Positions 2,716 to 41,897 of a DNA stretch of 60,370 nt are shown one piece after another. Within the stretch, counting starts at the first letter, position 1, and the number at the start of each line of letters is the position of its first letter. The position numbers were made by a program, and so were the translations under genes. The stretch covers positions 1 through 60,370 of the forward strand of contig CALIUG010000048.1 in NCBI GenBank assembly GCA_938048755.1, written 5' to 3'. This DNA is from an uncultured Alphaproteobacteria bacterium (lineage in GTDB: Bacteria > Pseudomonadota > Alphaproteobacteria > SP197). Below the pieces are notes generated by a model. It did no database searches. It saw only the letters and a program-made list of their open reading frames with translations, and had not been told where the DNA came from.

Positions 2716-2719
2716 GGCC

Positions 2720-19644: not shown

Positions 19645-19651
19645 AAAAACC

Positions 19652-25345: not shown

Positions 25346-25365
25346 ATCGAGACTTGGCGCAAACC

Positions 25366-26604
25366 ATGTCATTTGGATTGATCCCTGTTCTCGTGACCGC
25401 CGGTGCCGTGCTGGCGGCCGTTGAAGCGGCTGCGTGGACGGTGGTCATGATCTTCCGACGCAACTTTCCCTGGCTCATCGTGCCCCGTGACGCCAGGCCG
25501 GAGATCGCCACGGACGTGATCGAGAAATACGCCCGCGTGAGCTTCGATGCGGAGCTGGGCTGGGCACGCAAGCCCGGTACGTCGGGCCTCGATGTCTCGC
25601 CTGAGGGCGATGCAGCCTTTTCCATCGCGGACGATGGTGCGCGTACCAACCCGGGTTTCGAGGGCAAGCCCAGCAGTGTTGCGGTCTTTGGTGATTCCTA
25701 CGCCTTCTGCCGTCTGGTCGGTGACGGAGAGACCTGGCCACACGCGCTCTCCGGTCTGTGCGGGACCAACGTGCGCAACTTCGGTGTCGGCAATTACGGT
25801 CTGGACCAGGCGCTCCTGCGTTATGAACGTCAGGCCCCTGACCACAAAGGCTCTGTCGTGATCATGGCTGTGGTGCCCGAAACCATTGCCAGGGTTCACT
25901 CGTTCTGGAAGCACTTCTATGAGTAAGGCAACACGCTGGCGTTCAAGCCGATGTTCCAGATTGAAGGGGATGACCTCAAGCTGGTCCCGTGTGCGGTCCA
26001 GGAGGCACACGAAATCGCCGAGACCTCGCGCTGGCGTGACGCTGTGCGCCAGAACGACCGGTTCTACCGCGAGAAGTTCCTGGCAGACCTGATCCGGTTT
26101 CCCGCGAGCCTCAGCATCCTGCGCCGGTGGCGGCGTCATGGACGCATTCTTTCCGAACTGCTTTGCGGCGCGATGACCGGGGAACCCGAAGCTGCGCGCC
26201 GCAGGGCGTTTTCGGTTGTGCTCGATGAAAACCACCTGCATCAGCGGCGTCTCTTTGCCGAGCCGGAAGCAGGGGAACTGCTGCGCCGGCTGGTGGTCCG
26301 TTTCGAGGCGACGGCCAGACGTCACGGCGCAACGCCGCGCCTTGTCATCCTTCCTCAGCTCCGTGACCTCGCGGACCGGGCATCAGGCAGGGATGTCAGC
26401 CGGGAGGTTGTCCACAAACTGGGCGAGGTTGTGCCTGTTCTCGACCTTGGTGATGTCCTGCTGCAACAGCACGATGCCATGGAGGTCTATGAGGAGGGCG
26501 CATTGGGGCCGCATACCAGTCCCAATGCGAACCGTCTGATCGCCGAAACCGTACATCAATGGCTGGCTGCCGACGGGCTGGCCGGGGTGAAGGAAAGCAA
26601 CTAA
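25366..26604 (+). pseudogene. Membrane-anchored SGNH/GDSL-like protein split by an in-frame TAA at 25924-25926
   Basis: ORFs 25315-25926 and 25951-26604 share a frame. Read-through gives HFYE*GNTLAFKPMF. N-terminal TM helix, FGDSYAF, NFGVGNYGLDQA, C-terminal GPHTSPNANRLIA. Confidence 0.78.
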
Positions 26605-26608
26605 CGCC

Positions 26609-28408
26609 ATGTCTCTCTGGGCTTCACGATTCAAGGAATTCTGCCGTGACGCGGTGATTCCGCCTGCCCTGTGGAAGGCGCTTTCCAATGCTTCACGTGC
26701 CATGCATGCCGACAAGCGCAAGGCCGACAAGAACAAGAGCCAGTATCCCTATATCTGGGATGGTGACGACTTCGAACTTGCCCACGACCTGCGTTATGTT
26801 GCGGTCCCCGATGCGACCGGTGCCATGGGCATCACCCGTGCGCGCGATACCCGTGCTGCCATCGAGGTGCAGAGGGATGTCGATATCAGCGTCGGTCCGT
26901 TTCCGCCTGATACCGTTGCCTTCACGACTGCATTTGCCCAGGCGCGCATCAATCTTCCCTATGCCGATCTCACGGTGACGCTGGATGGCAAGCCCGTCAC
27001 CCAGATCAAGGGGCCGCTGATTGCCGAGAACTGGAACAACGTTCGAGTGCCCATCGGGGACCCCGCAAAGGTTTCGACCCTGCGTCTGAGCTGGTTGGGC
27101 GAGCGGTTGTATCTGTCCCAGCCGGTGCCGGAACGGGTTCTGGCCGACCGGGAAAAACGCTCCAACGTGATTGTTCTGGTACTTGATTCCATGGTGCCCG
27201 AAACCGTGGGGTGCCTTTCGGGCGCGTCACCAGAGGAATCGTTCACGCCCCAGATCGACCGCTACTTCGCAAACGGCCAGCTGTGCACCAACGCCTACAG
27301 CCAGAGCGAATACACGATGCCCTCGCTCGCCACGATGATGACGGGGCTTTATCCCATCCAGCACGGTGTCTTCACCCATGACCGGTGTCAGCGCACCATC
27401 CCGCCCCAGATTCCGACTCTGGCGGAGTTTCTGCAGGAAGCAGGTTACCGAACGTTTGCCTATTCGACGGGGCGTCGGTACGTGCCGCCCTATGGTCATT
27501 ACCGCGGGTTCGAGCGCTTTCATTTTCACAACCAGAGCCTGGCAGACACGACCGACACGGTGGTCAACCGGGCGATGGAGTTCATCGAGACGCACAAGGA
27601 TTCACCGACCTTCTGTTTCCTGCACATCATCGATCCGCACCCCCCCTTTGCCCTGCCGACCTATTTTTCCGAACTCAATTCGGGTGAGTCACGCTGGGGG
27701 GACAGCCGAAGCCTTTATGGCGCCTTCAAGCTGCATCGTGACAGCCGCGAGCGTGTCGCCGACCTGCGCGAGATGGAGCGCGTCATGGTGCGCAATCTCG
27801 ACTTCATCCTGGGCAAGCTCTTTGGCTATCTGGAACGCGAAGGCCTCAACAAGACAACCGATGTCATGGTGCTGGCTGATCATGGACGGGAATACATGAA
27901 GGGCTCGCCGCTGCTGACCCGCAGCCTGACCCGTATTCCATTCCTGCTCACCGGCCCCGGTGTGAAGTCGGGCACCTGTGACGGTTTCGTTGAGCCGCCC
28001 ATCGATCTTTATCCAACCATTGCAGGGATGGCCGGATTGGAGCCGCCGCCGCATCTTTCCGGACGCAACGCGATTGAACCCGAAGGCGGCTATCGCACGG
28101 TCGGGCGATCGGAATCTCTCTTCCGGGAGACCGGTGAAATCGTTCTGCGCGAGGATGACCGCATGTACGCCCTGCGCTTCCCGCTCGATGACCTTGCCGG
28201 TGAGGGGGATTTTGACGCGCCGGTCGGTGAATGGCTGTTCCGCCGGGATCCAGCGACCAAGGAAGAGGACATGAGCGAGAATCTGCTCGATTCCGAACCG
28301 GAAACCACGGCGCGGTTCCGCAAGATGGTGCGCGATCACTACGACGGCATGGAACGCCATTTCTCCAACGACAACATCATCGCCATGACGCGGGACTATC
28401 CCAAATGA
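26609..28408 (+). CDS. Alkaline-phosphatase/sulfatase superfamily protein with Thr at the nucleophile position
   Basis: NVIVLVLDS, SQSEYTMPSLATMMTGLYP, LHIIDPHPPF, VLADHG, IPFLL, DLYPTI. About 185-aa N-terminal extra region. No obvious signal peptide. Confidence 0.83.
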   Translation: MSLWASRFKEFCRDAVIPPALWKALSNASRAMHADKRKADKNKSQYPYIWDGDDFELAHDLRYVAVPDATGAMGITRARDTRAAIEVQRDVDISVGPFPPDTVAFTTAFAQARINLPYADLTVTLDGKPVTQIKGPLIAENWNNVRVPIGDPAKVSTLRLSWLGERLYLSQPVPERVLADREKRSNVIVLVLDSMVPETVGCLSGASPEESFTPQIDRYFANGQLCTNAYSQSEYTMPSLATMMTGLYPIQHGVFTHDRCQRTIPPQIPTLAEFLQEAGYRTFAYSTGRRYVPPYGHYRGFERFHFHNQSLADTTDTVVNRAMEFIETHKDSPTFCFLHIIDPHPPFALPTYFSELNSGESRWGDSRSLYGAFKLHRDSRERVADLREMERVMVRNLDFILGKLFGYLEREGLNKTTDVMVLADHGREYMKGSPLLTRSLTRIPFLLTGPGVKSGTCDGFVEPPIDLYPTIAGMAGLEPPPHLSGRNAIEPEGGYRTVGRSESLFRETGEIVLREDDRMYALRFPLDDLAGEGDFDAPVGEWLFRRDPATKEEDMSENLLDSEPETTARFRKMVRDHYDGMERHFSNDNIIAMTRDYPK

Positions 28409-28433
28409 CGGTGTATGGACCGGGAGAACAGCG

Positions 28434-28961
28434 GTGATCATCTGGCTCATCGGCCTGTCGGGTGCCGGCAAGACGACCATCGGGCGCGAGGTCTGGCAGC
28501 AATGGCGCGAGCAGGACCCCGCCACGGTGTTCCTTGACGGCGACATTCTGCGGGACGTCTGGGGCGACCGCCTGGGGCACGATGTCGAGGGCAGGGCGCG
28601 CAACGCCCATCGCATCTCCCATCTGTGCCGGGTTCTGGACGAGCAGGGCATCAATGCCGTCGCGGCGGTTCTGTCGATCTTTCCCGAATGGCAGGCCTGG
28701 AACCGCGAGACATTTTCGTCTTACTACGAGGTCTTTCTGGATCTTCCCATGGAGGTTCTGAAACAACGCGATCCCAAGGGGATCTATGCCGCCCATGACA
28801 GTGGCGAAATGCCACTGGTGGTAGGGTGTGACCTGCCGTTTCCCACACCGCCCGCGCCGGATCTGGTGCTGGGCGAAGACGCCATGAAAAGCAGCCCGGG
28901 CGATCTTGCCCGCCGTATTCTCGGTGATTCGGGTGTGCTCCATGATCAAGAAGGAGTTTGA
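28434..28961 (+). CDS. Adenylyl-sulfate-kinase-like protein, probable cytidine diphosphoramidate 3'-kinase (Cj1415 homologue)
   Basis: IIWLIGLSGAGKTT, LDGDILR, WNRETFSSYYEVF, RDPKGIY, VVGCDLPF. Context next to Cj1416-18 homologues. Confidence 0.82.
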   Translation: MIIWLIGLSGAGKTTIGREVWQQWREQDPATVFLDGDILRDVWGDRLGHDVEGRARNAHRISHLCRVLDEQGINAVAAVLSIFPEWQAWNRETFSSYYEVFLDLPMEVLKQRDPKGIYAAHDSGEMPLVVGCDLPFPTPPAPDLVLGEDAMKSSPGDLARRILGDSGVLHDQEGV

Positions 28962-28964: not shown

Positions 28965-30044
28965 GTGAAGGTGAAGATTTTCGGTGCCGGTTCGATCGGC
29001 AACCATCTGGCGAATGCCTCGCGGCGTCTCGACTGGCAGGTCGATGTCGTCGATATCGACCCGGCGGCGCTCAAGCGCATGCGCGAGGAGATTTATCCCG
29101 CACGTTATGGCGCATGGGACGAAGCCATCGGCCAGCACGTTGCCGGTGATGCGCCCGTGGGTGGTTATGACCTGATCATGATCGGCACGCCGCCCGACCA
29201 CCATGTCGGCCTGGCGCGTGAAGCCATCGCGGAGAATCCTGCCGCGCTGCTGATCGAAAAGCCGCTTTCGACGCCCGATCTGGAAGGTCTGGCCGAGCTT
29301 CACGCCGAGGCAGAGGCTGCCGGCGTGGTTGCCTTTACCGGCTATGACCATGTCGTGGGCGAGGCCAGCAGCCTGATGACCGATGCCCTGGCTGCCGGCG
29401 CCTTCGGCACGCTCGAAACACTCGATGTCGAGTTCCGCGAGCACTGGGGCGGCATCTTTGCAGCACACCCCTGGCTTGATGGCCCGACCGATACCTATCT
29501 GGGCTTCTGGAAGCGCGGTGGCGGCGCCAGCGGCGAGCATTCCCACGCCGCCAATCTGTGGCAACACTTCGCGCATGCTGCCGGTCATGGTGGCGTTGTC
29601 GAAGTCCAGGCCAGGCTGGACTACGTCACCGATGGTGGCGCCGATTATGACCGGCTCTGCCTGCTCAACCTGACAACGCAGACCGGCTTCTGCGGGCGGG
29701 TCGTACAGGACGTTGTGACCAAGCCGCCGCGCAAATGGGCGCGTGCCCAGGGCAGCGACAGCGGTGGGGAATGGCGTTGCGGTTTCGAGCCCGGCAAGGA
29801 TGCCTATGCCCCCGATGGTGGCGAGGCAACGGTGGTCACGAAGACCCGTCCGGACGACTTCATCCGCGAACTGCGTCACATTGAAGATGCCCTGGCATCG
29901 AAAACCGGCTCTGCCAGCCCCATATCGCTGGAACGTGGTCTCGACACCATGCTGGTGGTTGCTGCCGCGCATCGTTCCCAGGCGCAAGGCCGGACCGTAC
30001 GCATTGACCGCTCAGCCGGTTACAGTATGGCTGCTCTTGACTGA
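28965..30044 (+). CDS. Gfo/Idh/MocA family oxidoreductase
   Basis: GAGSIGNH, IGTPPDHH, IEKPL, GGGASGEHSH. Confidence 0.85.
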   Translation: MKVKIFGAGSIGNHLANASRRLDWQVDVVDIDPAALKRMREEIYPARYGAWDEAIGQHVAGDAPVGGYDLIMIGTPPDHHVGLAREAIAENPAALLIEKPLSTPDLEGLAELHAEAEAAGVVAFTGYDHVVGEASSLMTDALAAGAFGTLETLDVEFREHWGGIFAAHPWLDGPTDTYLGFWKRGGGASGEHSHAANLWQHFAHAAGHGGVVEVQARLDYVTDGGADYDRLCLLNLTTQTGFCGRVVQDVVTKPPRKWARAQGSDSGGEWRCGFEPGKDAYAPDGGEATVVTKTRPDDFIRELRHIEDALASKTGSASPISLERGLDTMLVVAAAHRSQAQGRTVRIDRSAGYSMAALD

Positions 30045-30079
30045 TCCAACGCCGTTTACGCTTAGAATCTGGAAAACCC

Positions 30080-31639
30080 ATGACTCCTCCGCATGACGAA
30101 AAACCCTTTGATTTCAAGGACCTGTTTGTTCTCGACCTCGCCAATAACCATCAGGGCGACATCGAGCACGGCAAACGCGTGATCCGTGAGCATGGTGCGG
30201 TCGTGGCCCGCCATGGTGTTCGGGGGGTCATCAAGTTCCAGTTCCGCGATCTCGACACCTTCATTCATCCCAGCCATCTGCAATCCAGCGACAACAAACA
30301 TGTGCCGCGGTTTCTTTCGACCCGGCTGGACCGAGACGGGTTCCAGGCATTGCTCGATGAGGTGCGTGCCCAGGGCATGATGGCGGCCTGTACTCCGTTC
30401 GACGAGGCCTCGGTTGGCGTGATCGAGGAGATGGGTTTCGACATCATCAAGGTGGCGAGCTGCTCAGCCAAGGACTGGCCGCTTCTGGAACGGATTGCCG
30501 CCTCCGCCCGTCCGGTGATTGCCTCGACCGGTGGCCTCTTGCAGTCGGATATGGACGCGTTGGTCAGCTTTCTGGGTCATCGTGGTGCGGACTTTGCGCT
30601 CATGCATTGCGTCTCGGTCTATCCCACACCCGATTCCATGTGCCATCTCAACAACATCGCCATGATGATCGAACGCTTCGGCGGTCGCACGGTCGGCTGG
30701 TCGACCCATGAGAACCCGGCAGACACGATGCCGGTGGGTCTCGCACTCGCCAAGGGTGCGCGCATGTTCGAGCGCCATGTCGGTGTGCCGACTGACACCA
30801 TCACGCTCAACGCCTATTCCTCCAATCCCGATGAGGTCGACGCCTGGATCACGGCCTGGAAGAAGGCACAGACCCTGCTGGGCCTGGATGAACGCCAGGC
30901 ACCCAGTGAGGATGAAGCCGTCGCGATTGCCGGATTGAGCCGCGGTGTGTTTGCCCGGCATGATCTTGAAGCAGGCCACGCGGTTTCTCGCGATGATGTC
31001 TACTTTGCCTTCCCCTATGCTGAAGGTGGCCTGGAAAGTGGACAGTGGAGCAACGAGATCGTCACGACCAAGGCGATCAAGGCCGATGCCACCCTGGCGC
31101 TTGATGCCATCTCCATGCCCGAACGTTCCGATGTGCATGTGCTCAAGCAGGCGGTGCACGAGGTCAAGGGTCTGCTCAACAAGGCGCGGGTCGAACTGGG
31201 CAGCGAGTTCGAGGTGGAGTACTCGCACCATTACGGACCCGGGGCATTCCGCGAGACCGGCGTGGTCATCGTCAACTGCATCAACCGTGAATACTGCAAG
31301 AAGGTGCTGATCCAGCTTGCCGGTCAGGGTCATCCCTCGCACTACCACAAGCGCAAGGAAGAGACCTTCCATGTTCTGTGCGGCGAGCTTCACAGTGAAC
31401 TGGACGGTCGCCATCGCCTGCTCCAGCCCGGCGACACGCTGCTGGTTCTGCCCGGCGTCTGGCACCGCTTCTGGACCGAGACCGGCTGTGTTTTCGAGGA
31501 GATCTCGACGACCCATTACAACAACGATTCGGTCTATCGCGATCCGAAGATCCAGGCGATGGAACGCTCGGAGCGCAAGACCGTGGTCGATCACTGGGGC
31601 CGTTTCCAGCTTGCCGATGGAGCCCAGGCGGCAGAATGA
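30080..31639 (+). CDS. NeuB-family ulosonate synthase fused to SAF and a C-terminal cupin (D-lyxose/mannose isomerase-like) domain
   Basis: LANNHQGD, KFQFR, TPFDE, KVASCS, STGG, HCVSVYP, GWSTHE, FERH. Cupin YCKK...HPSHYHKRKEETF...WHRF...FEEIST. Confidence 0.85.
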   Translation: MTPPHDEKPFDFKDLFVLDLANNHQGDIEHGKRVIREHGAVVARHGVRGVIKFQFRDLDTFIHPSHLQSSDNKHVPRFLSTRLDRDGFQALLDEVRAQGMMAACTPFDEASVGVIEEMGFDIIKVASCSAKDWPLLERIAASARPVIASTGGLLQSDMDALVSFLGHRGADFALMHCVSVYPTPDSMCHLNNIAMMIERFGGRTVGWSTHENPADTMPVGLALAKGARMFERHVGVPTDTITLNAYSSNPDEVDAWITAWKKAQTLLGLDERQAPSEDEAVAIAGLSRGVFARHDLEAGHAVSRDDVYFAFPYAEGGLESGQWSNEIVTTKAIKADATLALDAISMPERSDVHVLKQAVHEVKGLLNKARVELGSEFEVEYSHHYGPGAFRETGVVIVNCINREYCKKVLIQLAGQGHPSHYHKRKEETFHVLCGELHSELDGRHRLLQPGDTLLVLPGVWHRFWTETGCVFEEISTTHYNNDSVYRDPKIQAMERSERKTVVDHWGRFQLADGAQAAE

Positions 31640-32271
31640 TCAGCCACCTGGTCTTTGACCTGGACGGCACGCTGGTGCCTTCAAACGACGTCAAGCGTGA
31701 CGCTTTCTTTGCCTGTGTCGAGGGCATCGACGGCGCAGGTGAGATCATTGCCTCCATGCTGGACGCCGACCCCACGCGCGACCGCTACCGCGTGTTCGGC
31801 GAACTTGTCGCGCGCCTGCCCGCCAGCGGCGATGCCGATGTGCTGATCGCGCGCTACAGCACACTGTGCCACGAACGGATTGTCGCACTTCTCAAGGAAG
31901 GCGTGACCGATGCGTTGCTTGATCTGTTACGCGGTCAGGGACTGACCTTGCACCTGAGCTCTGGGACGCCGCGTGACGCGCTCCTGGCGATGATGCGCGA
32001 AACCGGTTTTGACCGGCACTTCGCCGATATCAACGGATCGCCGTCCGCCAAGGCCGACACCCTGCGTTCCATCATGCAGAAGCATGGCCTTGAGGCCTCC
32101 CAGCTTGCCGTCATCGGAGATGGCGACAGCGACGCAGAGGCCGCCACAGCGGTCGATTGTGCCTTCCTGCGCGTGGCGGATGATGCGAGCGAGCTTTATG
32201 GACAACCGGCCGACGCGGGTTGCGCGTTTCTGGGTAGGCACCTCGATCTGGCATCCAGGGAAGCGGCATGA
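31636..32271 (+). CDS. HAD-family hydrolase/phosphatase
   Basis: VFDLDGTL, SSGTP, K, IGDGDSD (HAD motifs I-IV). Confidence 0.87.
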   Translation: MISHLVFDLDGTLVPSNDVKRDAFFACVEGIDGAGEIIASMLDADPTRDRYRVFGELVARLPASGDADVLIARYSTLCHERIVALLKEGVTDALLDLLRGQGLTLHLSSGTPRDALLAMMRETGFDRHFADINGSPSAKADTLRSIMQKHGLEASQLAVIGDGDSDAEAATAVDCAFLRVADDASELYGQPADAGCAFLGRHLDLASREAA

Positions 32272-33137
32272 CTCTTGATCTTGCACGCCTGACCCGGCCG
32301 CTCGATCAGGATACCTACACCCTGTTGCGCTCGGGTGTTCAGGATGACCCCCAAATCAACGTCTACATCAACGAGCAGGGCGACTTCGCCGTTCTCGACC
32401 CTATGCCGGTCATGGACTATGCCGCCTATGAGCGCCGGTCGGAAAAGCTGGGCCTTCAGGCCTATGCGAAGAACTCCGGAGGTCTCGAGGCGCGCCTGCA
32501 GAAGGTGCAGCACCTGATCCCGGACGGTGGGGGAGTGCTGGAAATCGGTGCGGCCAATGCTGCGTTTCTCGAACTTGCTCAGAATGCGGTTCCGGCAAGC
32601 CGGTATGCCGCCATTGAACCGGACCAGAATACCCGGCCGGACCGGGACCGCCTGTCGTGGCTGACGCAGTATGACGGAATCGAGGAAGCACGTGCGGGCG
32701 GAGAGCGGTTTGACCTCGTCATGCTGTTCCATGTTTTCGAGCACATTCCCGAGCCCGATGTGTTCCTGGCTGAAGCCCGCAGCCTGCTCGCCGAGGGCGG
32801 GTCGCTCCTGATCGAGGTGCCGTGCCTCCATGACCCACTGCTGACGCTCTACGAGAACGCCGACTATCAGGCATTCTACTTCCAGCGGCAGCATCCCTTC
32901 GTTTACTCCGCGCCATCCCTGGAACGCGTGCTCAAGCACAGCGGCTTTGTTGTACGCACTTCGATTCCGCATCAGCGATATGGCATCGAGAATCATCTCC
33001 AGTGGTTGTCTGCGGGAAAACCAGGCGGCAATGCGCGTTTCCGCGAGCTGTTCGGCACCACTGATCTTGCCTACCGCGCTGCGCTTGAGGCTCAGGGCAC
33101 GACCGACACCATCATCATCGAGGCTGTCGCGGCATGA
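32268..33137 (+). CDS. Class I SAM-dependent methyltransferase
   Basis: VLEIGAANA, FDLVMLFHVFEHI, LLIEVP, QRYGIENHLQW. Confidence 0.85.
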   Translation: MTLDLARLTRPLDQDTYTLLRSGVQDDPQINVYINEQGDFAVLDPMPVMDYAAYERRSEKLGLQAYAKNSGGLEARLQKVQHLIPDGGGVLEIGAANAAFLELAQNAVPASRYAAIEPDQNTRPDRDRLSWLTQYDGIEEARAGGERFDLVMLFHVFEHIPEPDVFLAEARSLLAEGGSLLIEVPCLHDPLLTLYENADYQAFYFQRQHPFVYSAPSLERVLKHSGFVVRTSIPHQRYGIENHLQWLSAGKPGGNARFRELFGTTDLAYRAALEAQGTTDTIIIEAVAA

Positions 33138-33853
33138 CCTGGGACGGTCGCCGCATTCTGGCTGTGTGCCCGGCGCGGGGAGGCAGCAAAGGTATCCGTC
33201 TCAAGAACCTGCGACCGGTGGGTGGTGTTCCCATGGTCGCCCGGGTCGGCCATCTCTGTGCTGAACTCGACTGGCTCGACCGTGCCGTGGTGTCGACCGA
33301 TCACGACGAGATCGCCGCCATGGCCGAAGAAAGTGGTCTTGCCGCACCGTTCCGCCGGCCTGAAGACATCTCCGGCGACCGTATCGGTGACTGGGACGTG
33401 TTGCACCATGCCCTGCACGCCAGCGAAGCCCATGACGGCGTCACCTACGATGTCGTCGTGATGCTCCAGCCGACCTCACCCTTGCGCCGGGCCGAACATG
33501 TAGCCGACACGGTCGCCGCTCTGGTTGATGGCGACTGGGATGCCTGCTGGACGGTTTCGGAAACCGACAGCAAGGCGCATCCGCTCAAGCAGCTTGCCAT
33601 TGATGAGGACCGGCTGGACTTCAACGATCCCGGTGGCGCGGCCATCATCGCACGCCAGCAGCTCAAGCCGGTCTACCATCGCAACGGACTTGCCTATGCC
33701 ATCACCCGCTCCTGTCTGGTGGACCAGAAAACGATCATGGGAGCGCGTACGCGCGGTCTGGTGACACCTGGCCATTTCATCAGCATTGATACCGAGTTCG
33801 ACATCGCACTGGTCGAATTCCTCATGGATTGGGAGCGCAGGGACACCGCGTGA
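33134..33853 (+). CDS. neuA: Acylneuraminate (CMP-ulosonate) cytidylyltransferase, NeuA family
   Basis: PARGGSKGIRLKN, VSTD, PFRRP, LQPTSPLR, RQQL, RNGLAY, SIDTEFD. Confidence 0.88.
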   Translation: MTWDGRRILAVCPARGGSKGIRLKNLRPVGGVPMVARVGHLCAELDWLDRAVVSTDHDEIAAMAEESGLAAPFRRPEDISGDRIGDWDVLHHALHASEAHDGVTYDVVVMLQPTSPLRRAEHVADTVAALVDGDWDACWTVSETDSKAHPLKQLAIDEDRLDFNDPGGAAIIARQQLKPVYHRNGLAYAITRSCLVDQKTIMGARTRGLVTPGHFISIDTEFDIALVEFLMDWERRDTA

Positions 33854-35220
33854 AGGTTCTGGTGTTCATCGATGCTGATCTGGTCGTGCGTCACTTCGTG
33901 ATGAGTGCTGCGTTTGCCGATCTGGCCGCCAGGCATGATGTCGAGTTCGTCTTTCTGGATCCTTCGAACCAGCGCATGGGTCCGGTGGAGCCGGAGACGC
34001 TGGACCTGCATGGTGCCGATTACGAACTGCTGGATGTCGAACCCAAGCGGGCGCGTCTCTGGAGCGAACTCTTCACCGTGGACCGCCTGCGTCTGCGGCC
34101 GGGCCGGCAGTTCCGTGCCGTACGCCACATCTATCGCAACGCCCAGTCCTGGAAAGGGCGTCTGCTCTATCAGACCCTGGCCCTGCCCGGTCTGCGCCAG
34201 CTCTTCACCTGGTTCCAGTACCACCGTCTTGACGCGCATCCCAACCGTGCCCTGGAAACACTACTGGATCGCCATCAGCCAGATCTCGTCGTGCATCCCA
34301 CGGTTCTGAACGGACTCTTCATCAACGATGTCGTGCAGACATGCCGCCGCCGCGGGTTGCCCCATGTGCTGGTCATGAACTCCTGGGACAACCCCTCGAG
34401 CAAACAGGCGGTTGTCGGCCATCCCGATCTTTTGCTCGTCTGGGGCGAGCAGACCGAGGAACACGCGTTGCGTTACATGAACATGCCGATTGATCGTATC
34501 CGCCGGTTCGGTGCCGCGCAGTTTGAAGTCTACCGCGAGCCGCCACGTCTCGACCGTGCGGCGTTCTGTGCTGCCTACGATATCGACCCTGCAAAACGCA
34601 TCCTGCTGTATGCGGGATCCAGCAAGGAAACCGATGAGTTCAGTCACCTCAAGGCAATCGAGGCCATGATCGAATCCGGCACTCTGCCCGATACGGTTCT
34701 GCTCTATCGACCGCATCCGTGGGGCAATGGTGGTCAGGACGGGCACCGGATCATCGATGAACCCTGGAGGCATGTTCGCCTGGAACGTTCGATGCGGGGT
34801 TATCTCGAACAGGTCAAGGCGGGCAATCTCGAGAAGTCCCTGCCGGACTACCGTGAAACCCGTGACCTGCTCTGCCATATCGACGCGCTGGTTTCTCCGC
34901 TTTCGACGATCATTGTGGAAGCCGCCCGTCTCGGACATCCGGTTCTGTGCTTCCTGCCCGAAGATGAGCTCCAGGAGGCCGAGCACCTGCGCATCGCCAT
35001 GCCCAGCGTGCACTTTGATGCGCTGTATGACATGCCGGGCGTGATGGTGGCGCGCAGCCGCCAGGCCATGCTCGATGCTCTGCCATCCCTTGTTGCCCTG
35101 TCCGGCGATGACGCTGCCTGCGAGAGGTTGCGCAGGGCAACCGATGTCATCGTGGAGCCCTTTGATGAGCCCTGGGGCCGGCGTTTCACTAATCTGGCCG
35201 AGGAGCTTGTAGCGGCATGA
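33850..35220 (+). CDS. GT-B/TagF-like protein with HP motif, putative CMP/CDP-donor transferase
   Basis: GTG start overlapping neuA stop. SWDNPSSK, LLVWGE, GAAQFE, YRPHPW, STIIVEAARLGHP. Confidence 0.65.
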   Translation: MKVLVFIDADLVVRHFVMSAAFADLAARHDVEFVFLDPSNQRMGPVEPETLDLHGADYELLDVEPKRARLWSELFTVDRLRLRPGRQFRAVRHIYRNAQSWKGRLLYQTLALPGLRQLFTWFQYHRLDAHPNRALETLLDRHQPDLVVHPTVLNGLFINDVVQTCRRRGLPHVLVMNSWDNPSSKQAVVGHPDLLLVWGEQTEEHALRYMNMPIDRIRRFGAAQFEVYREPPRLDRAAFCAAYDIDPAKRILLYAGSSKETDEFSHLKAIEAMIESGTLPDTVLLYRPHPWGNGGQDGHRIIDEPWRHVRLERSMRGYLEQVKAGNLEKSLPDYRETRDLLCHIDALVSPLSTIIVEAARLGHPVLCFLPEDELQEAEHLRIAMPSVHFDALYDMPGVMVARSRQAMLDALPSLVALSGDDAACERLRRATDVIVEPFDEPWGRRFTNLAEELVAA

Positions 35221-36194
35221 GTGGTTCCCTCCAGGGAAGGACCTGCGCCATCACGGGCGGCGGGGGCCTGATCGGTTCGTTTCTGGTCGATGACCTGGTC
35301 GCACGAGGTGCGAGCGTTGTTGTCGTGGACGACTTCTCCAAGGGCCGGCGCGCCAACCTTGCCCATCAGGCTGAGGCCATCGAGATCCGAGAGGTCGATC
35401 TGGAACAGGCGGGAAGCGCCCTTGATGCGCTGGAAGGCTGTGAGATCGTGTTTCACCTCGCCAGCCGTGCCTTTGGGGTCGGTCATGGTGCGGGACGTCA
35501 CTGGGAAATCCTGGCGCATAACGAAGCCATCACCAACAACGTGCTTGTTGCCGTCGCGCGACAGCGTCCCGACCATGTGCTGATCACCTCGTCTTCCTGT
35601 GTGCATCGCGATGATGGACCCGACACCGTGGGCGAGTTGCTGCTGTTTGACGGTGAACCGGAAATGGCGAACTGGGGTTATGGCTGGGCCAAACGGTTCC
35701 TCGAACAGAAAGCCCTTGTGGTCGCGCGCGAGACCGGCATTCCCATGACCCTCGTGCGCCCGTTCAACATCTTTGGTGAACGTTATGCCTGGGCAGGCAA
35801 CAGCAGTCAGGCCATTCCCATGCTGGTGAAGAAGGTCATGGACGGCGAAGACCCCGTCATCATGTGGGGTTCGGGCGAACAACGCCGCACCTACCTCCAT
35901 GCCAGCGATTGCGCGGCGATCATGCGCAGTCTGGTTGAAGCGGGCTGGACCGACGGGCCGGTGAACATCGGTCTGGCGGAAACCGTCACCGTTCGCGAAC
36001 TGGTCGAAACGATCTGTCGTGTCGCCGGACGTTCACCGGAGCTGATTGCCGATACCAGCAAGCCAGAAGGCCGGTTTGTGAAGAGCAGCGATCCCACGCG
36101 TCTCATGCAGGCCGTTCCGGGCTTCAAACCATCGCTCAGCTTTGAAGAGGGCATCCGCCGCATGACCGACTGGTACAGACAGGAGTTCGCGTGA
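35217..36194 (+). CDS. NAD-dependent epimerase/dehydratase (extended SDR, GME/Fcl-like)
   Basis: TGGGGLIG, VFHLA, SSSCV, YGWAK, RPFNIFG, WGSGEQRRTYLH. Confidence 0.87.
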   Translation: MSGSLQGRTCAITGGGGLIGSFLVDDLVARGASVVVVDDFSKGRRANLAHQAEAIEIREVDLEQAGSALDALEGCEIVFHLASRAFGVGHGAGRHWEILAHNEAITNNVLVAVARQRPDHVLITSSSCVHRDDGPDTVGELLLFDGEPEMANWGYGWAKRFLEQKALVVARETGIPMTLVRPFNIFGERYAWAGNSSQAIPMLVKKVMDGEDPVIMWGSGEQRRTYLHASDCAAIMRSLVEAGWTDGPVNIGLAETVTVRELVETICRVAGRSPELIADTSKPEGRFVKSSDPTRLMQAVPGFKPSLSFEEGIRRMTDWYRQEFA

Positions 36195-37345
36195 GGGTTC
36201 CACCACAGGCCGCATCGCGGTTAGGCCGCGGCAAGGCCCGGATCCAGTGCTTGACCAAGGGTCGGTTTGACGCACGCCTTGCTGATATGGCCGAAGGGCT
36301 GTCGCCGCGTGACTTTTTCTATGGTTTCCTCGGGCTGGTCGAACGGGGTTACGACGCCAGGTTCCAGCAGACCGATGCGCCCTATCAGGGCGTGATCGGC
36401 CAGGTTGCCCATCTTCATGAGCGTGTGCTGAGCCGATTCACCGGGCTTTCCCGGCGTCAGCATGTGCTTTCGGAACTGAATTCGGATTGGCGTGATTCCG
36501 AGGTTCTGGTGAGTTTCACGGACCATTTCAGTCTCAGTCTGGGCGATGTCATGCGCAATCGTCTGGAGCATCCTTTCGCCATTGGCCTGTTCCACGGTCT
36601 CTCCGACATCGAGAATCGCATGCCGACCTTCGGGCGTCTGTTCAGCCGTGGGTTTGTCCGCAATGCGCTCTCGGGCCTCGATCACATCGGTTTCTTCGGG
36701 CCCGGCGACCGGGAAGAAGCAATCCGTCGTTATGGCCTCGATCCAGACCGCACCAGCGTCTATGCCTTCGGGATCGATACGGACTTCTGGTGCCCCGATG
36801 ACACAGAGGTACCCGAAGAACCCTATGTCCTCTCCGTGGGCTCGGATCCCAGCCGCGACTACGCCACGCTGATTGCTGCTCCCATCGAAGCACCGGTCCG
36901 TATTGTGACGCGCTTGCCCGTCGACGTGCCCTCTGATCGCCCCAACGTCGCGGTGCTGGCGGGACACTACTTCAAGAGCCCGTTGGATGATGTCGGCCTG
37001 CGCCGTCTCTATCGCCAGGCCTCGGTTGTCGTCGTTTCCCTGCAGGATGTCTTCCAGCCCACGGGTTACAGCGTCTGTCTGCAGGCCATGGCATGTGGCC
37101 GCCCGGTCGTGCTGACCGATATCAAGGGGCTGTGGTCGCCCGGACTCTACCGGGACGGAGAGCACTGCCTTCTGGTGCCGCCACGTGATCCCCGCGCGAT
37201 TGCATCATCTGTACAACGCATTCTGGGTGATCAAGTTCTTGCGCAGGACCTTGGCGAAGCCGCTCGTGCGGTGACCTGTGAACATCATCCGCTCAAGCGC
37301 ATGGATGACGGTCTCGAAGCCCTGGTCCGGATGGGTCTGTCGTGA
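36191..37345 (+). CDS. Glycosyltransferase family 4-like
   Basis: FGIDTDFW, SVGSDPSRDY, PTGYSVCLQAMACGRPVV. Start position uncertain. Confidence 0.83.
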   Translation: MRVPPQAASRLGRGKARIQCLTKGRFDARLADMAEGLSPRDFFYGFLGLVERGYDARFQQTDAPYQGVIGQVAHLHERVLSRFTGLSRRQHVLSELNSDWRDSEVLVSFTDHFSLSLGDVMRNRLEHPFAIGLFHGLSDIENRMPTFGRLFSRGFVRNALSGLDHIGFFGPGDREEAIRRYGLDPDRTSVYAFGIDTDFWCPDDTEVPEEPYVLSVGSDPSRDYATLIAAPIEAPVRIVTRLPVDVPSDRPNVAVLAGHYFKSPLDDVGLRRLYRQASVVVVSLQDVFQPTGYSVCLQAMACGRPVVLTDIKGLWSPGLYRDGEHCLLVPPRDPRAIASSVQRILGDQVLAQDLGEAARAVTCEHHPLKRMDDGLEALVRMGLS

Positions 37346-38358
37346 AGGTTGCCATTGGTTATCACGTGCAGCCCGGTGCCTGGGGTGGCGGCAACCGCTT
37401 TGCAAAGTCATTGGCAGCCGCGCTGGAAGCCCGGGGTGATGCCGTCGTCTATGACCTCAGCGACGATGACATCGATATCCTGATCATGACCGATCCGCGC
37501 TCGCGCAGTTCCAACATCTCCTTTGCCGCCGGCGCCTGCCTGAACTATCTCAAGCGTCACCCGCAAGCTGTGGTGATCCATCGCATCAACGAATGTGATG
37601 AACGCAAGGGCACGAAATCCATGAACCGGCGGTTGCGCATCGCCAACTACGCTGCCGATCACACGGTCTTCATCGCTTCCTGGCTGCGTGACCTCGACCT
37701 CTGGCGACACGGCCCCTGGTCGGTCGTGCTGAACGGTGGTGAAACCAGTGTCTTCCGAGCAGACCGTAACCAGCCCTGGGACGGGCGCGGACCACTCAGG
37801 CTTGTCACGCACCACTGGGGTGCAAGTCTGATGAAGGGATTCGATGTCTATCAGGAACTCGACCGCCTGATCGGCACGCCGAGCTGGAAGGACAAGTTGG
37901 CCTTTACCTATGTCGGCAACCTGCCCAGGGGATTTGCCTTCGAGAACGCACGGCATGTCGCGCCGCTTGATGGCGATGCGCTGGCTGGGGAGCTCGCCAG
38001 CCATCATGTCTATGTCACGGGTTCGCGCAACGAACCTGCGGGCATGCATCACATCGAAGGTGCACTTTGTGGCCTGCCGCTGATCTATCGCGATTCCGGG
38101 GCGCTGCCGGAGTACTGCAACGGGTTCGGTGAGATCTTTGACGATCTGCAGAGCTTCCATCCCGCCCTGGGGCGCATGATGCAGCATTACGAACGGCACA
38201 AGTCGGCGATGGCTGGCTACCGCCACACGGCTGATCGCATGGCTGCGGGATATCTCGACGTGATCGACGATCTCTATGATCAGCGCGCCGAAATTGCTGC
38301 TGCACGGCGTCTCTGGCGCAGCCCTGCCGCGATGCTGGCAAACAAGGTGCCCTGGTGA
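37342..38358 (+). CDS. GT-B glycosyltransferase-like protein
   Basis: WGGGNRF, HRINECDERKG, LVTHHW...KGFD, NEPAGMHHIEGALCGLP. Confidence 0.72.
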   Translation: MKVAIGYHVQPGAWGGGNRFAKSLAAALEARGDAVVYDLSDDDIDILIMTDPRSRSSNISFAAGACLNYLKRHPQAVVIHRINECDERKGTKSMNRRLRIANYAADHTVFIASWLRDLDLWRHGPWSVVLNGGETSVFRADRNQPWDGRGPLRLVTHHWGASLMKGFDVYQELDRLIGTPSWKDKLAFTYVGNLPRGFAFENARHVAPLDGDALAGELASHHVYVTGSRNEPAGMHHIEGALCGLPLIYRDSGALPEYCNGFGEIFDDLQSFHPALGRMMQHYERHKSAMAGYRHTADRMAAGYLDVIDDLYDQRAEIAAARRLWRSPAAMLANKVPW

Positions 38359-38368
38359 GCAACATCTG

Positions 38369-40258: not shown

Positions 40259-40274
40259 AAGGCAGACGTTAACG

Positions 40275-41830: not shown

Positions 41831-41897
41831 TCCCGGTACCGGATGGGTTCAGAAACAAGGGCAATACAGTACCTGCTTGCCAAAGGCCAGTCTTCCC

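What the first reader, a model, noticed from the sequence alone, without database searches (positions are those of the whole stretch)
30080..35220. Second ulosonate module: NeuB-cupin isomerase fusion + HAD phosphatase + methyltransferase + NeuA + HP-motif transferase
Seen: a divergent NeuB (LDLANNH and GWSTHE, versus AELSGNH and GLSDH in the PseI here) carries a metal-binding cupin (HYH..KEE...H), and four genes follow in 4-nt overlaps. No NeuC is in the window. Established: KDN synthesis in Bacteroides uses a 9-phosphate synthase, a HAD phosphatase and a CMP synthetase, and lyxose/mannose isomerases are cupins. Inference: the cupin makes the aldose(-phosphate) for its own synthase domain, giving a non-acetamido (KDN-like or shorter) ulosonate that may be O-methylated.
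Basis: partly seen in the sequence, partly recalled or inferred. Interest (0 to 1): 0.75.

Follow-up and report, generated by a model that had tools for sequence, protein, structure and literature searches.

The report
Isomerase-fused synthase cassette for acidic sugar
A sialic-acid-type synthase fused to a sugar isomerase sits in a widespread but never-studied gene set that probably makes an activated, nitrogen-free, sialic-acid-like sugar for the cell surface; which sugar it makes is still unknown.

Summary
30080-31639 encodes a NeuB barrel, a retained SAF-like domain and a complete D-lyxose/mannose-isomerase-type cupin. A HAD hydrolase, a SAM methyltransferase, a NeuA/PseF-type cytidylyltransferase and a TagB-like transferase with an invariant HP motif follow, joined by ATGA/GTGA overlaps.

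The synthase and isomerase catalytic sets are both intact. The arginine that binds the N-acetyl group in NeuB and PseI is a hydrophobic residue here. No amino-sugar genes travel with the cassette. A nitrogen-free CMP-ulosonate, KDN-like, is therefore the best reading.

The methyltransferase is lineage-specific (12 of 52). The HAD enzyme is optional (35 of 54) and is not the KdsC/KDN-9-P phosphatase type. Lyxose isomerases act on free sugars, so the "9-phosphate" analogy is not supported.

A nested sister clade pairs the same fusion with CDP-hexose genes and a thiamine enzyme, and has no CMP synthetase.

The synthase subfamily (PDB 3g8r-like) is far from NeuB, LegI and PseI. No paper on it turned up. 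This scan has reported the same fusion in at least 17 other genomes.

The parts
28965..30044 (+). Gfo/Idh/MocA-family NAD(P) oxidoreductase (359 aa). Its role is unassigned.
   Evidence: Pfam GFO_IDH_MocA 38.7 bits. GxGxxG and EKP motifs are present. Found directly upstream of the fusion in 45 of 47 clade-1 loci with enough flank. AF2 model pLDDT 95.7. Foldseek gives only generic sugar/cyclitol dehydrogenases: GenD2, 1,5-anhydrofructose reductase, scyllo-inositol DH, YjhC, all TM 0.70-0.80. A profile search of PDB scores at most 46 bits.
30080..31639 (+). Three-domain fusion: NeuB-type PEP-condensing TIM barrel (about res 14-270), SAF-like cap (about res 285-345), and a D-lyxose/mannose-isomerase-type cupin (about res 350-507).
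   Evidence: Pfam and NCBIfam. PDB 3g8r 316 bits against at most 74 bits for NeuB, SpsE and PseI. AF2 pLDDT 90.4. Foldseek: 3g8r TMt 0.95; cupin part to 2y0o TMt 0.71, rmsd 1.9 over 166 columns. Invariant catalytic residues in a 27-sequence alignment.
31636..32271 (+). HAD-superfamily hydrolase with cap domain (211 aa), a probable sugar-phosphate phosphatase. The substrate is unknown and could be precursor or product.
   Evidence: Pfam Hydrolase 56.7 and HAD_2 38.2 bits. DLDGT motif. The best NCBIfam hit is phosphoglycolate-phosphatase-like at 33.7 bits, and there is no KdsC/YrbI hit. Present in 35 of 54 clade-1 loci.
32268..33137 (+). Class I SAM-dependent methyltransferase (289 aa). Lineage-specific tailoring step, probably O-methylation.
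   Evidence: Methyltransf_23 79.3 bits. A homologue lies downstream in 12 of 52 clade-1 loci. Strong orthologues occur only in L003, L013, L011 and L050.
33134..33853 (+). NeuA/PseF-type cytidylyltransferase (239 aa), a CMP-ulosonate synthetase.
   Evidence: CTP_transf_3 56.6 bits. TIGR03584 PseF 105.3 bits over its full length, below the 205.7 cut-off. PDB: CMP-Neu5Ac synthetases 67-77 bits against KdsB at most 24 bits. Within 3.5 kb downstream in 43 of 52 clade-1 loci.
33850..35220 (+). Putative CMP-ulosonate transferase, distantly TagB/TagF-like, with an invariant RPHPWG (HP) motif. Start taken at GTG 33850; the ORF opens at TTG 33829.
   Evidence: NCBIfam BFO_1060 domain 41.6 bits, E 8.5e-11. 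BFO_1060 is one of the Tannerella Pse/Leg transferase homologues (PMC5420450). ESM Atlas nearest clusters carry Glyphos_transf in 24-58% of members. Pfam Glyphos_transf is matched by 6 of 13 orthologues, and the window's own protein scores only 12.7 bits. HP motif invariant in 13 of 13. Present in 15 of 49 clade-1 loci.
35217..38358 (+). Translationally coupled continuation: an SDR epimerase/reductase (35217-36194) and two GT4-like glycosyltransferases (36191-37345, 37342-38358). This is context, not core.
   Evidence: Pfam. 4-nt overlaps. Co-occur in L003, L011, L013, L050, L054 and L065.

Best explanation
Genes 28965-35220 form one translationally coupled module for a CMP-activated, nitrogen-free 3-deoxy-2-ulosonic acid. 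The product is most likely a nine-carbon KDN-type acid, O-methylated in this lineage.

Proposed steps (all inferred):
1. The C-terminal cupin of the fusion, a metal-dependent aldose-ketose isomerase of the D-lyxose/D-mannose type, turns a ketose into the rare manno/lyxo-configured aldose. The ketose would be fructose or xylulose, free or phosphorylated.
2. The N-terminal NeuB barrel of the same polypeptide condenses that aldose irreversibly with PEP. Fusion lets this condensation pull the unfavourable isomerisation.
3. The HAD enzyme removes a phosphate, either from the starting sugar phosphate or from the ulosonate phosphate.
4. The methyltransferase adds a methyl group.
5. The NeuA-type enzyme makes the CMP-sugar.
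6. The TagB-like HP-motif enzyme transfers it to the glycan built by the downstream glycosyltransferases.

The upstream Gfo/Idh/MocA oxidoreductase is an obligatory partner whose step is not assigned. It either supplies the ketose or changes one carbinol of the acid by oxidation and reduction. The product may therefore be an isomer or derivative of KDN rather than KDN itself.

Shown here: domain architecture, intact catalytic sets, cassette conservation and subfamily placement. Inferred: substrates, order of steps and product.
For: Architecture and fold.

NeuB machinery is invariant in 27 aligned sequences: K52, Q54, T105, K124, S127, S149, Y181, S208, H210, E231 and H233. These map to the PEP, Mn and sugar ligands listed for NmNeuS/PNH5 (PMC11339185 passages; alignments).

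The Arg that binds the N-acetyl carbonyl (NmNeuB R314) aligns to F311: 'VIRP' in the window's PseI against 'FAFP' here. Position 311 is F, M or I across the alignment.

Lyxose-isomerase residues K62, H75, H77, K86, E88, H143, E156 and D163 of TsLI (PMC8378251) correspond to K408, H421, H423, K426, E428, H462, E474 and D483.

Cassette conservation in clade 1:
- oxidoreductase upstream, 45 of 47
- CMP synthetase, 43 of 52 within 3.5 kb and 45 of 52 within 8 kb
- HAD, 35 of 54
- aminotransferase, 4,6-dehydratase or NTP-transferase of the clade-2 type, 0 of 43-47

The cytidylyltransferase is NeuA-like, not KdsB-like (77 against at most 24 bits). This favours a C9 acid.

Precedent: Serratia marcescens KL1/KL2 neuB is a NeuB fused to a COG1082 sugar-phosphate isomerase/epimerase domain. 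It is required for KDN production, with KDN:Neu5Ac about 20:1 (PMC9000132 passages).

A 5-O-methyl-KDN polysaccharide of Sinorhizobium fredii is on record. I saw it only as a reference-list entry in PMC9000132.

4-nt overlaps run from 31636 to 37342.
Against: - There are no biochemical data for any member. No paper was found.
- The oxidoreductase, the most constant neighbour, has no defined step. Structure and profile searches give only generic relatives.
- The HAD enzyme is absent from 19 of 54 loci and is not of the KdsC/KDN-9-P phosphatase type.
- Known lyxose isomerases use unphosphorylated sugars (PMC8378251). Yet the family carries extra invariant basic residues, which could mean an anionic substrate: H383, H384, R403, K407, H418, R499 and K500, plus R56, H63 and R77 in the NeuB beta2-alpha2 loop. 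Free sugar against sugar phosphate is therefore open.
- A nested sister clade (22 of 79 loci) keeps the same fusion but has a thiamine-diphosphate enzyme (20 of 20) and no CMP synthetase (0 of 20). The acid can be an intermediate rather than a donor sugar.
- The genome (92.7% complete) has no cytidylyltransferase above the PseF cut-off. The module's enzyme is the most PseF-like at 104.9 bits, so it might also, or instead, activate pseudaminic acid.
- A UDP-GlcNAc 2-epimerase-family fragment exists on contig C79.
Confidence: 0.6

Rival explanations
1. The cupin and the oxidoreductase act after condensation. The NeuB domain uses an ordinary cellular aldose or aldose phosphate. The cupin then isomerises the keto-deoxy acid, as KduI and KdgF do on keto-deoxy-uronates, and the Gfo-type enzyme reduces or epimerises it. 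The result would be a rearranged ulosonic acid that is then CMP-activated.
For: Many invariant basic residues unique to this family surround the cupin motifs, and the RKT motif lies in the C-terminal tail. This fits an anionic substrate. The oxidoreductase is linked more tightly than the HAD enzyme (45 of 47 against 35 of 54). A Gfo-family enzyme of sialic-acid metabolism, YjhC (6o15), is among the structural neighbours at TM 0.71; its role is recalled, not checked here. KdgF appears as a weak cupin hit at 17.4 bits.
Against: The closest fold and sequence relatives of the cupin are the free-sugar lyxose isomerases, with the full catalytic set. The KdgF similarity is not significant. YjhC is no closer than a dozen other Gfo enzymes.
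Confidence: 0.15
2. It is a second amino-sugar nonulosonate synthase of Leg/Pse/Neu type. It would use ManNAc or a diacetamido-hexose made elsewhere, for example by the Pse module in this window or the epimerase on contig C79. The cupin would be accessory.
For: A complete PseB/PseC/PseG-PseH/PseI set lies 20 kb upstream. An Epimerase_2 fragment lies on C79. PseI genes lie near the cassette in 4 of 79 loci: L004, L041, L072 and L075.
Against: The N-acetyl-binding Arg is replaced. Scores are far below the NeuB and PseI equivalog cut-offs (118 against 399.65 and 112 against 340.25). In the tree, a branch of about 6.4 substitutions per site with SH-aLRT 100 separates the subfamily from 31 canonical synthases. 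No aminotransferase is found in 0 of 47 clade-1 loci. The isomerase active site is strictly conserved, which argues against a vestigial domain.
Confidence: 0.07
3. The keto acid is a building block rather than a donor sugar, as in the sister clade. Another enzyme would decarboxylate it or graft it onto a sugar. The neighbouring cytidylyltransferase would then serve pseudaminic acid.
For: The sister clade and an unfused relative pair the synthase with a thiamine-diphosphate enzyme (20 of 20 loci; G074). No PseF above cut-off exists in the genome.
Against: No thiamine enzyme is found next to any clade-1 fusion (0 of 51). The cytidylyltransferase follows the fusion in 43 of 52 loci, most of which have no Pse genes. 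Two other CTP_transf_3 genes sit inside the Pse module.
Confidence: 0.05

Closest known systems
PDB 3g8r, 'probable spore coat polysaccharide biosynthesis protein E' of Chromobacterium violaceum (structural-genomics entry, function untested)
   Same: Same NeuB subfamily: 316 bits and 46% identity over 336 columns, TMt 0.95. It shares the ANNH, STHE and ERH motifs.
   Different: 3g8r is 350 aa with no cupin, and nothing is known of its substrate. An unfused relative in genome G074 sits beside a thiamine enzyme, not a CMP synthetase.
Serratia marcescens KL1/KL2 capsule NeuB (NeuB fused to a COG1082 sugar-phosphate isomerase/epimerase domain) with NeuA; makes KDN (PMC9000132)
   Same: A NeuB-family synthase fused to a sugar isomerase domain, next to a NeuA-type cytidylyltransferase in a surface-polysaccharide locus. 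The product is nitrogen-free KDN.
   Different: The isomerase there is a different fold (COG1082 class, per the paper) and the protein is about 746 aa. No oxidoreductase or HAD partner came up in the passages I read. I could not compare the sequences.
KDN pathway of Bacteroides thetaiotaomicron (KDN-9-P synthase, KDN-9-P phosphatase, CMP-KDN synthetase). Recalled; Wang et al. 2008 was seen only as a reference entry.
   Same: The logic of synthase, then phosphatase, then cytidylyltransferase, giving a non-amino nonulosonate.
   Different: The phosphatase there is a cap-less KdsC-type HAD (recalled), whereas the one here is a capped HAD_2 type. That pathway has no fused isomerase and no Gfo-type oxidoreductase, and its mannose-6-P comes from central metabolism.
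D-lyxose/D-mannose isomerases (B. subtilis YdaE 2y0o, Thermofilum TsLI 7nzo, E. coli Z5688 3kmh)
   Same: Cupin fold with an N-terminal helix. The metal ligands and the catalytic Lys, Glu and Asp are conserved.
   Different: Here the domain is fused to a synthase. It has a shorter loop between the second His and the Lys, extra invariant basic residues, and a conserved RKT-containing tail. The NCBIfam lyxose/mannose isomerase equivalog scores 24.8 against a cut-off of 350.
Tannerella forsythia Pse/Leg transferases (Tanf_01245, TFUB4_00887; BFO_1060 family; PMC5420450)
   Same: TagB-like architecture with an HP motif, encoded next to nonulosonate genes. In Tannerella, knock-outs lose the terminal nonulosonate.
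   Different: Only the N-terminal domain matches, at 41.6 bits against a cut-off of 200. Neither the donor nor the acceptor here is known.

Membership tests
NeuB family (Pfam PF03102), PEP-dependent ulosonate synthases | Score above the curated family cut-off, with metal-binding His pair and PEP-binding Lys/Ser residues | tested here: met
   128.4 bits against a cut-off of 22.1. K52, K124, S127, S149, S208, H210, E231 and H233 are invariant.
N-acetylneuraminate / legionaminate synthase equivalog (TIGR03569) | Whole-protein score at or above 399.65 bits; Arg of the SAF domain binding the N-acetyl group | tested here: not met
   118.4 bits. The Arg position is F311. In the tree the subfamily is separated from 29 TIGR03569-positive sequences with SH-aLRT 100.
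Pseudaminic acid synthase PseI equivalog (TIGR03586) | Whole-protein score at or above 340.25 bits | tested here: not met
   112 bits, while the window's true PseI (9177-10238) scores 500.9.
D-lyxose/D-mannose isomerase family | Cupin fold with His-His-Glu-His metal site and catalytic Lys/Glu/Asp | tested here: met
   Pfam Lyx_isomer 34.5 bits against a cut-off of 20.8. Foldseek 2y0o, 7nzo and 3kmh. Residue mapping. In the sister clade the first His is Gln.
D-lyxose/D-mannose isomerase family | NCBIfam equivalog NF051472 score at or above 350 bits | tested here: not met
   24.8 bits. It is a relative of the family, not an orthologue of the characterised enzymes.
D-lyxose/D-mannose isomerase family | Isomerase activity on lyxose/xylulose or mannose/fructose | not testable with these tools
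   Needs an enzyme assay.
KDN pathway (Bacteroides type) | KdsC/YrbI-type (cap-less, C0) HAD phosphatase specific for KDN-9-P | tested here: not met
   No KdsC/YrbI model hit at E <= 0.001. The best hits are phosphoglycolate-phosphatase-like at 33.7 bits, and the protein has a cap domain. That the Bacteroides enzyme is C0-type is recalled.
KDN pathway (Bacteroides type) | [quoted passage not shown] | not testable with these tools
   Needs DMB-LC-MS or NMR of the product.
CMP-nonulosonate synthetases (NeuA/PseF/LegF type, Pfam CTP_transf_3) | Family score above cut-off, and closer to NeuA than to KdsB | tested here: met
   56.6 bits against a cut-off of 22.6. PDB NeuA 67-77 bits against KdsB at most 24. 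The PseF equivalog is not reached (105.3 against 205.7).
TagB/TagF-like (Glyphos_transf) / BFO_1060 nonulosonate transferases | Family score above the curated cut-off | tested here: not met
   Glyphos_transf 12.7 bits against a cut-off of 22.1 for the window's protein, though 6 of 13 orthologues match with best E 4.1e-6. BFO_1060 domain 41.6 bits against a cut-off of 200. A PDB profile search found nothing significant.
TagB/TagF-like (Glyphos_transf) / BFO_1060 nonulosonate transferases | Conserved HP motif of CMP-sugar-using bacterial sialyltransferases | tested here: met
   R294-P-H296-P297-W-G is invariant in 13 of 13. The motif's meaning is taken from PMC5420450 passages.
Gfo/Idh/MocA oxidoreductases | N-terminal Rossmann fold with GxGxxG and EKP motif, and an alpha/beta C-terminal domain | tested here: met
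   Pfam 38.7 bits against a cut-off of 24. G7-x-G9-x-x-G12 and E98-K99-P100 are invariant. Fold confirmed.

The most novel reading that the evidence does not exclude
The four-gene core (Gfo-type oxidoreductase, isomerase-fused 3g8r-type synthase, HAD, NeuA-type synthetase) makes a CMP-activated ulosonic acid that is not KDN, Kdo or any described acid. It could be, for example, a KDN stereoisomer or keto/deoxy derivative set by the oxidoreductase, O-methylated here. In this island it would be combined with an acetamidino-pseudaminic acid and a phosphoramidate group into one surface glycan. The same synthase-isomerase unit was later recruited, in the nested sister clade, to feed a thiamine enzyme that builds higher-carbon or branched sugars.
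Probability: 0.35. Interest if true: 0.75.

Novelty: new variant of a known kind. Interest (0 to 1): 0.55.

Why it matters
Nonulosonic and related acids cap bacterial surface glycans. They shape recognition by phages, immune systems and symbiotic hosts.

Mass-spectrometric surveys report KDN and unassigned CMP-linked ulosonic acids in environmental bacteria, without genes to explain them. One example is Magnetospirillum gryphiswaldense (preprint 10.64898/2026.04.20.719630, passages read).

This cassette is found across many phyla. It occurs in 14 of 401 sampled genomes of the window's phylum and in 79 species loci overall, and it is untested.

Assigning its product would annotate thousands of genes. 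It would also give a one-polypeptide route from a common ketose to a sialic-acid-like sugar, and explain why an oxidoreductase is needed.

Tried and rejected
1. Literature. 'NeuB'+'cupin' returned 124 papers, and the 20 listed were unrelated word-start matches. 'nonulosonic'+'cupin' returned 0 papers. '3G8R' returned 3 papers, 2 listed, with only a template-list mention. The large NulO-synthase phylogeny paper PMC8208679 has no occurrence of cupin, fused, isomerase or uncharacterized.

2. Function of the oxidoreductase. Single-sequence PDB search gave at most 23 bits, profile search at most 46 bits, and AF2 plus Foldseek gave only generic Gfo/Idh/MocA relatives. No assignment was possible.

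3. PDB searches for the HAD enzyme (at most 19 bits) and the transferase (nothing significant) led nowhere.

4. Open frames of about 800 aa holding canonical NeuB domains in the phylum sample looked like possible Serratia-type fusions. Two were checked (L107, L109) and show no second Pfam domain. They are probably long GC-rich open frames, so I dropped them.

5. I could not place a characterised KDN-9-P synthase, LegI or the Serratia NeuB in the tree, because no stored sequence was available. Tree labels rest on NCBIfam model hits.

I could not check how the cupin and NeuB active sites sit relative to each other, or where the extra basic residues lie.

7. No complex prediction was run, because I make no claim that these proteins bind each other.

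Full report
**Observation**

The + strand of the window carries an almost unbroken chain of glycan-biosynthesis genes from base 14 to about 50514. The five genes of the finding are present as described.

- 30080-31639 (519 aa): Pfam NeuB 128.4 bits (residues 50-268), Cupin_2 44.1 bits (415-467), Lyx_isomer 34.5 bits (443-490).
- 31636-32271: a HAD hydrolase with an intact DxDxT motif.
- 32268-33137: a Methyltransf_23 protein.
- 33134-33853: a CTP_transf_3 cytidylyltransferase.
- 33829-35220: no Pfam family.

The junctions read ATGA at 31636, 32268, 33134 and 35217, and GTGA at 33850, 36191 and 37342. The transferase therefore probably starts at GTG 33850, and translational coupling continues into an SDR and two GT4-like genes.

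The genome has only two NeuB-family genes: the PseI at 9177-10238 (TIGR03586, 500.9 bits) and this one.

**The fusion protein**

The AlphaFold2 model, built on a 27-sequence alignment, is confident (mean pLDDT 90.4). It shows a TIM barrel, a small beta domain at about 285-345, a helix, and a cupin barrel.

The beta domain is the usual SAF/antifreeze-like cap. Pfam SAF is detected in the Pseudomonas homologue (26.7 bits) and in three of the 120 listed database homologues.

Foldseek against the PDB gives these matches:
- 3g8r, an uncharacterised 350-aa 'SpsE' of Chromobacterium violaceum: TMt 0.95, 46% identity.
- NeuB (1xuu) and PseI (8h2c): TMt about 0.75-0.81.
- For the C-terminal part, the D-lyxose isomerases 2y0o (TMt 0.71, rmsd 1.9 A over 166 columns), 7nzo/p/q and 3kmh.

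By sequence, 3g8r scores 316 bits, while NeuB, SpsE and PseI structures score 59-74. The NCBIfam equivalogs are far from met: NeuB_NnaB 118.4 against 399.65, and PseI 112 against 340.25.

In a sample of 151 genomes of the phylum, canonical NeuB-family genes score 205-336 bits on PF03102. Members of this subfamily score 121-132.

**Tree of the NeuB domain**

I built an IQ-TREE tree (quick search, LG+C20) of 59 rows:
- the window's fusion, cut to its NeuB+SAF part
- 26 further fused proteins from alignment A1, out of the 79 loci and 120 listed database proteins
- one unfused relative
- the window's PseI
- the 30 best-scoring canonical genes of the 151-genome sample, of which 29 pass TIGR03569 and 1 passes TIGR03586

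The tree splits the 28 3g8r-like rows from the 31 canonical rows by a branch of about 6.4 substitutions per site (SH-aLRT 100). No experimentally characterised LegI, KDN-9-P synthase or Serratia NeuB could be included, so the tree shows separateness, not specificity.

**Active sites**

In the NeuB part, the residues that PMC11339185 (passages) lists for PEP, Mn2+ and the sugar have invariant counterparts: K52 and Q54, T105, K124, S127, S149, Y181, S208 and H210, E231 and H233.

The SAF-domain arginine is described there as completely conserved in bacterial NeuS, as contacting the N-acetyl carbonyl, and as absent from the mammalian 9-phosphate synthase. It aligns with F311: 'VIRP' in the window's own PseI against 'FAFP' here. 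Position 311 is F, M or I in all 27 sequences.

The beta2-alpha2 loop, which in NeuS carries the Asn that contacts the C6 hydroxyl of ManNAc, is longer here. It carries invariant R56, H63 and R77.

In the cupin, the eight residues that contact sugar and Mn in the Thermofilum lyxose isomerase are K62, H75, H77, K86, E88, H143, E156 and D163 (PMC8378251 passages). They correspond to K408, H421, H423, K426, E428, H462, E474 and D483, through the HMMER alignment to B. subtilis YdaE and alignment A1. All are invariant except H421, which is Gln in the sister clade.

Residues that are invariant here but not shared with YdaE are H383, H384, R403, K407 and H418, plus an R499-K500-T501 motif in a C-terminal tail.

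I read both domains as catalytically competent.

**Conserved context**

The search for related loci returned 79 loci from GTDB species genomes. They come from Alpha-, Beta- and Gammaproteobacteria, Chloroflexota, Actinomycetota (Nitriliruptoraceae), Gemmatimonadota, Acidobacteriota, Verrucomicrobiota, Bacillota and others.

I translated all their frames and searched them with the window's proteins and with those of the Pseudomonas capeferrum locus L020. The loci fall into two groups according to which fusion protein scores higher.

Clade 1 (57 loci, including the nearest relatives L013 at 91% and L003 at 84% identity):

| Neighbour | Loci with it, of those with enough flank |
|---|---|
| Gfo/Idh/MocA oxidoreductase directly upstream | 45 of 47 (missing in L005, L047) |
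| NeuA-type cytidylyltransferase within 3.5 kb downstream | 43 of 52 (45 of 52 within 8 kb) |
| HAD | 35 of 54 |
| Methyltransferase homologue | 12 of 52 |
| Homologue of the 463-aa transferase | 15 of 49 |
| Aminotransferase, 4,6-dehydratase, NTP-transferase or thiamine enzyme of the L020 type | 0 of 43-51 |

Clade 2 (22 loci; Pseudomonas, Pelomonas, other Betaproteobacteria, Desulfobacterota, Nitrospirales, Pirellulales):

| Neighbour | Loci with it, of those with enough flank |
|---|---|
| Thiamine-diphosphate enzyme directly downstream | 20 of 20 |
| DegT-family protein upstream | 18 of 21 |
| 4,6-dehydratase upstream | 16 of 20 |
| Sugar-1-P nucleotidyltransferase upstream | 16 of 20 |
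| Oxidoreductase | 0 of 22 |
| Cytidylyltransferase | 0 of 20 |

In L020 the clade-2 set lies beside fliD and fleQ. An unfused relative in genome G074 (362 aa, 37% identity) also sits beside a thiamine enzyme, in a Wzm/Wzt-type glycan locus.

In the tree, clade 2 is monophyletic (SH-aLRT 100) and nested within a clade-1 grade. That fits recruitment of the fusion from the CMP-type cassette, but the root is only a midpoint.

In a sample of 401 genomes of the phylum, relatives occur in 14 including the window's genome: 12 with fused-length frames and 2 unfused.

**The other genes**

- The cytidylyltransferase matches CMP-Neu5Ac synthetase structures at 67-77 bits and KdsB structures at no more than 24. 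It aligns over the whole PseF model at 105 bits, below the cut-off. It is a nonulosonate-type enzyme, which mildly favours a nine-carbon product.
- The HAD protein has a cap domain. Its best model hits are phosphoglycolate-phosphatase-like (33.7 bits), and no KdsC/YrbI model hits it.
- The oxidoreductase has the GxGxxG and EKP motifs and a family-specific, highly conserved insert. Sequence, profile and fold searches place it only generically among sugar and cyclitol dehydrogenases.
- The 463-aa protein has a weak but significant match (E 8.5e-11) to the N-terminal domain of the BFO_1060 family. Homologues of that family in Tannerella are needed for attaching the terminal Pse or Leg derivative, and they are described as TagB-like with an HP motif (PMC5420450 passages).
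- Its nearest ESM-Atlas clusters carry Glyphos_transf in 24-58% of members. Six of 13 orthologues match that Pfam family. RPHPWG is invariant.

**How it most likely works**

The synthase has lost the N-acetyl-binding arginine. No amino-sugar enzymes travel with the cassette. The fused domain belongs to the one isomerase family that makes D-mannose from D-fructose and D-lyxose from D-xylulose. The activating enzyme is NeuA-like.

The simplest scheme is ketose, then manno/lyxo-aldose (cupin), then 3-deoxy-2-ulosonic acid (NeuB domain plus PEP), then CMP-acid, then glycan. A HAD-catalysed dephosphorylation comes either before the isomerase (Fru-6-P to Fru) or after the synthase (ulosonate-P to ulosonate). 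In this lineage there is also a methylation.

Fusion makes chemical sense. The isomerase equilibrium favours the ketose, and the PEP condensation is irreversible.

A genetic precedent exists in Serratia marcescens. Its capsule neuB is a NeuB fused to a COG1082 sugar-phosphate isomerase/epimerase domain, and it is required for a capsule with KDN:Neu5Ac of about 20:1 (PMC9000132 passages). An O-methylated KDN polymer is on record for Sinorhizobium fredii, which I saw only as a reference entry.

I put 0.6 on 'nitrogen-free CMP-ulosonate module', and roughly half of that on KDN itself.

**What does not fit**

- The oxidoreductase is the most faithful partner and has no step in the KDN scheme. It may supply the ketose, or it may oxidise and reduce one position of the acid. 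In the second case the product is not KDN.
- The HAD enzyme is optional and of a different type from the known KDN-9-P and Kdo-8-P phosphatases.
- The same fusion serves a pathway without CMP activation in clade 2.
- In this genome (92.7% complete) no cytidylyltransferase reaches the PseF cut-off, and the module's enzyme is the most PseF-like. A shared or alternative role in pseudaminic acid activation cannot be excluded. Against that, two other CTP_transf_3 genes lie inside the Pse module.

**Comparison and novelty**

No paper on the fusion, or on 3g8r-type synthases, turned up in the searches, or in the phylogeny paper checked. Supplements of the bioRxiv preprint on Magnetospirillum CMP-ulosonic acids are closed and might bear on gene assignments.

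Source databases name these proteins only generically, for example 'N-acetylneuraminate synthase family protein' or 'D-lyxose/D-mannose family sugar isomerase'.

This scan has reported the same fusion before, in at least 17 other genomes, with the same reading. One note covers the thiamine-enzyme branch. I reached my cassette counts and the two-clade split before reading those notes, and they agree.

What is particular to this window:
- the inserted methyltransferase
- the coupled TagB-like transferase
- the position of the module between a phosphoramidate-type gene set and a block of glycosyltransferases, downstream of a full acetamidino-pseudaminic acid module

I class it as a new variant of a known kind (ulosonic-acid pathways), with interest 0.55.

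Noticed in passing
window 21559-28961 (+): This gene set resembles the Campylobacter phosphoramidate (MeOPN precursor) pathway. It holds a PEP-synthase-like protein matching NF004508/PRK05849 at 798 bits (21559-23868), an NTP_transf_3 protein (24179-25345), two small proteins with no family (25315-25926, 25951-26604), a 599-aa sulfatase/phosphotransferase-family protein (26609-28408), and an APS-kinase-like PRK05541 protein (28434-28961). That these models correspond to Cj1418 and Cj1415 is recalled. PMC11800397 only confirms that Cj1415-1418 make CDP-phosphoramidate 3'-phosphate. The same block precedes the cassette in L003 and L013.
   Followed up: partly
window 14-15629 (+): A pseudaminic acid module with acetamidino genes: PseB (417 bits), WbuX, HisH, WbuZ-like, PseC (471 bits), a PseG-GNAT fusion, PseI (501 bits), a second DegT, a formyltransferase-like protein and a GNAT. 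No canonical PseF is found in the window or the genome. Instead there are two KdsB-like CTP_transf_3 proteins, each next to a Gfo/Idh/MocA oxidoreductase (3472-4440 with 4437-6488; 11515-12264 with 12261-13259). That makes three oxidoreductase/cytidylyltransferase pairings in one island.
   Followed up: partly
window 4437-6488 (+): A fusion of a cytidylyltransferase domain (CTP_transf_3, 105 bits) with a class-III aminotransferase. The aminotransferase is glutamate-1-semialdehyde-aminomutase-like (398 bits, below the cut-off of 486).
   Followed up: no
L020:4783-16604 (Pseudomonas capeferrum WCS358) and 21 other loci; L094:9187-12134 (G074): A sister cassette: sugar-1-P nucleotidyltransferase, 4,6-dehydratase, a 441-aa DegT-family protein, the NeuB-cupin fusion, a thiamine-diphosphate enzyme, then HAD, methyltransferases and an SDR. 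In Pseudomonas it lies beside fliD/fleQ. An unfused 3g8r-like synthase also pairs with a thiamine enzyme. This suggests a keto acid used as a thiamine-enzyme substrate, perhaps for a branched or higher-carbon sugar on flagellin or O-antigen.
   Followed up: partly
window 38276-40258 and 47504-49393 (+); 40140-41102, 41823-42716, 45894-46661 (+): Two AsnB-type glutamine amidotransferases (352 and 315 bits) and at least three further SAM methyltransferases lie among the glycosyltransferases. They point to amidated and methylated sugars in the final glycan. GDP-mannose 4,6-dehydratase lies at 42713-43681 (345 bits).
   Followed up: no
G000:C79:8209-8490: The only UDP-GlcNAc 2-epimerase-family (Epimerase_2) match in the genome above cut-off (93.9 bits). 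It covers only the first 100 model positions and is cut by the contig end. Whether it is WecB- or NeuC-type is unknown.
   Followed up: no
window 16550-19644 (+): A 565-aa protein with no family, followed by a GSCFA-family protein (155 bits) and a PglK/MsbA-like ABC exporter (19577-21562). Homologues of this exporter flank the cassette in some clade-1 loci: 7 of 42 upstream and 7 of 49 downstream.
   Followed up: no
literature (preprint 10.64898/2026.04.20.719630): CMP-activated ulosonic acids with a ten-carbon marker fragment are reported in Magnetospirillum gryphiswaldense, with no gene assignment in the passages I read. They are N-acetylated, so they are probably not the product of this cassette. 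Still, the organism belongs to the same broad group as the window's nearest relatives.
   Followed up: no
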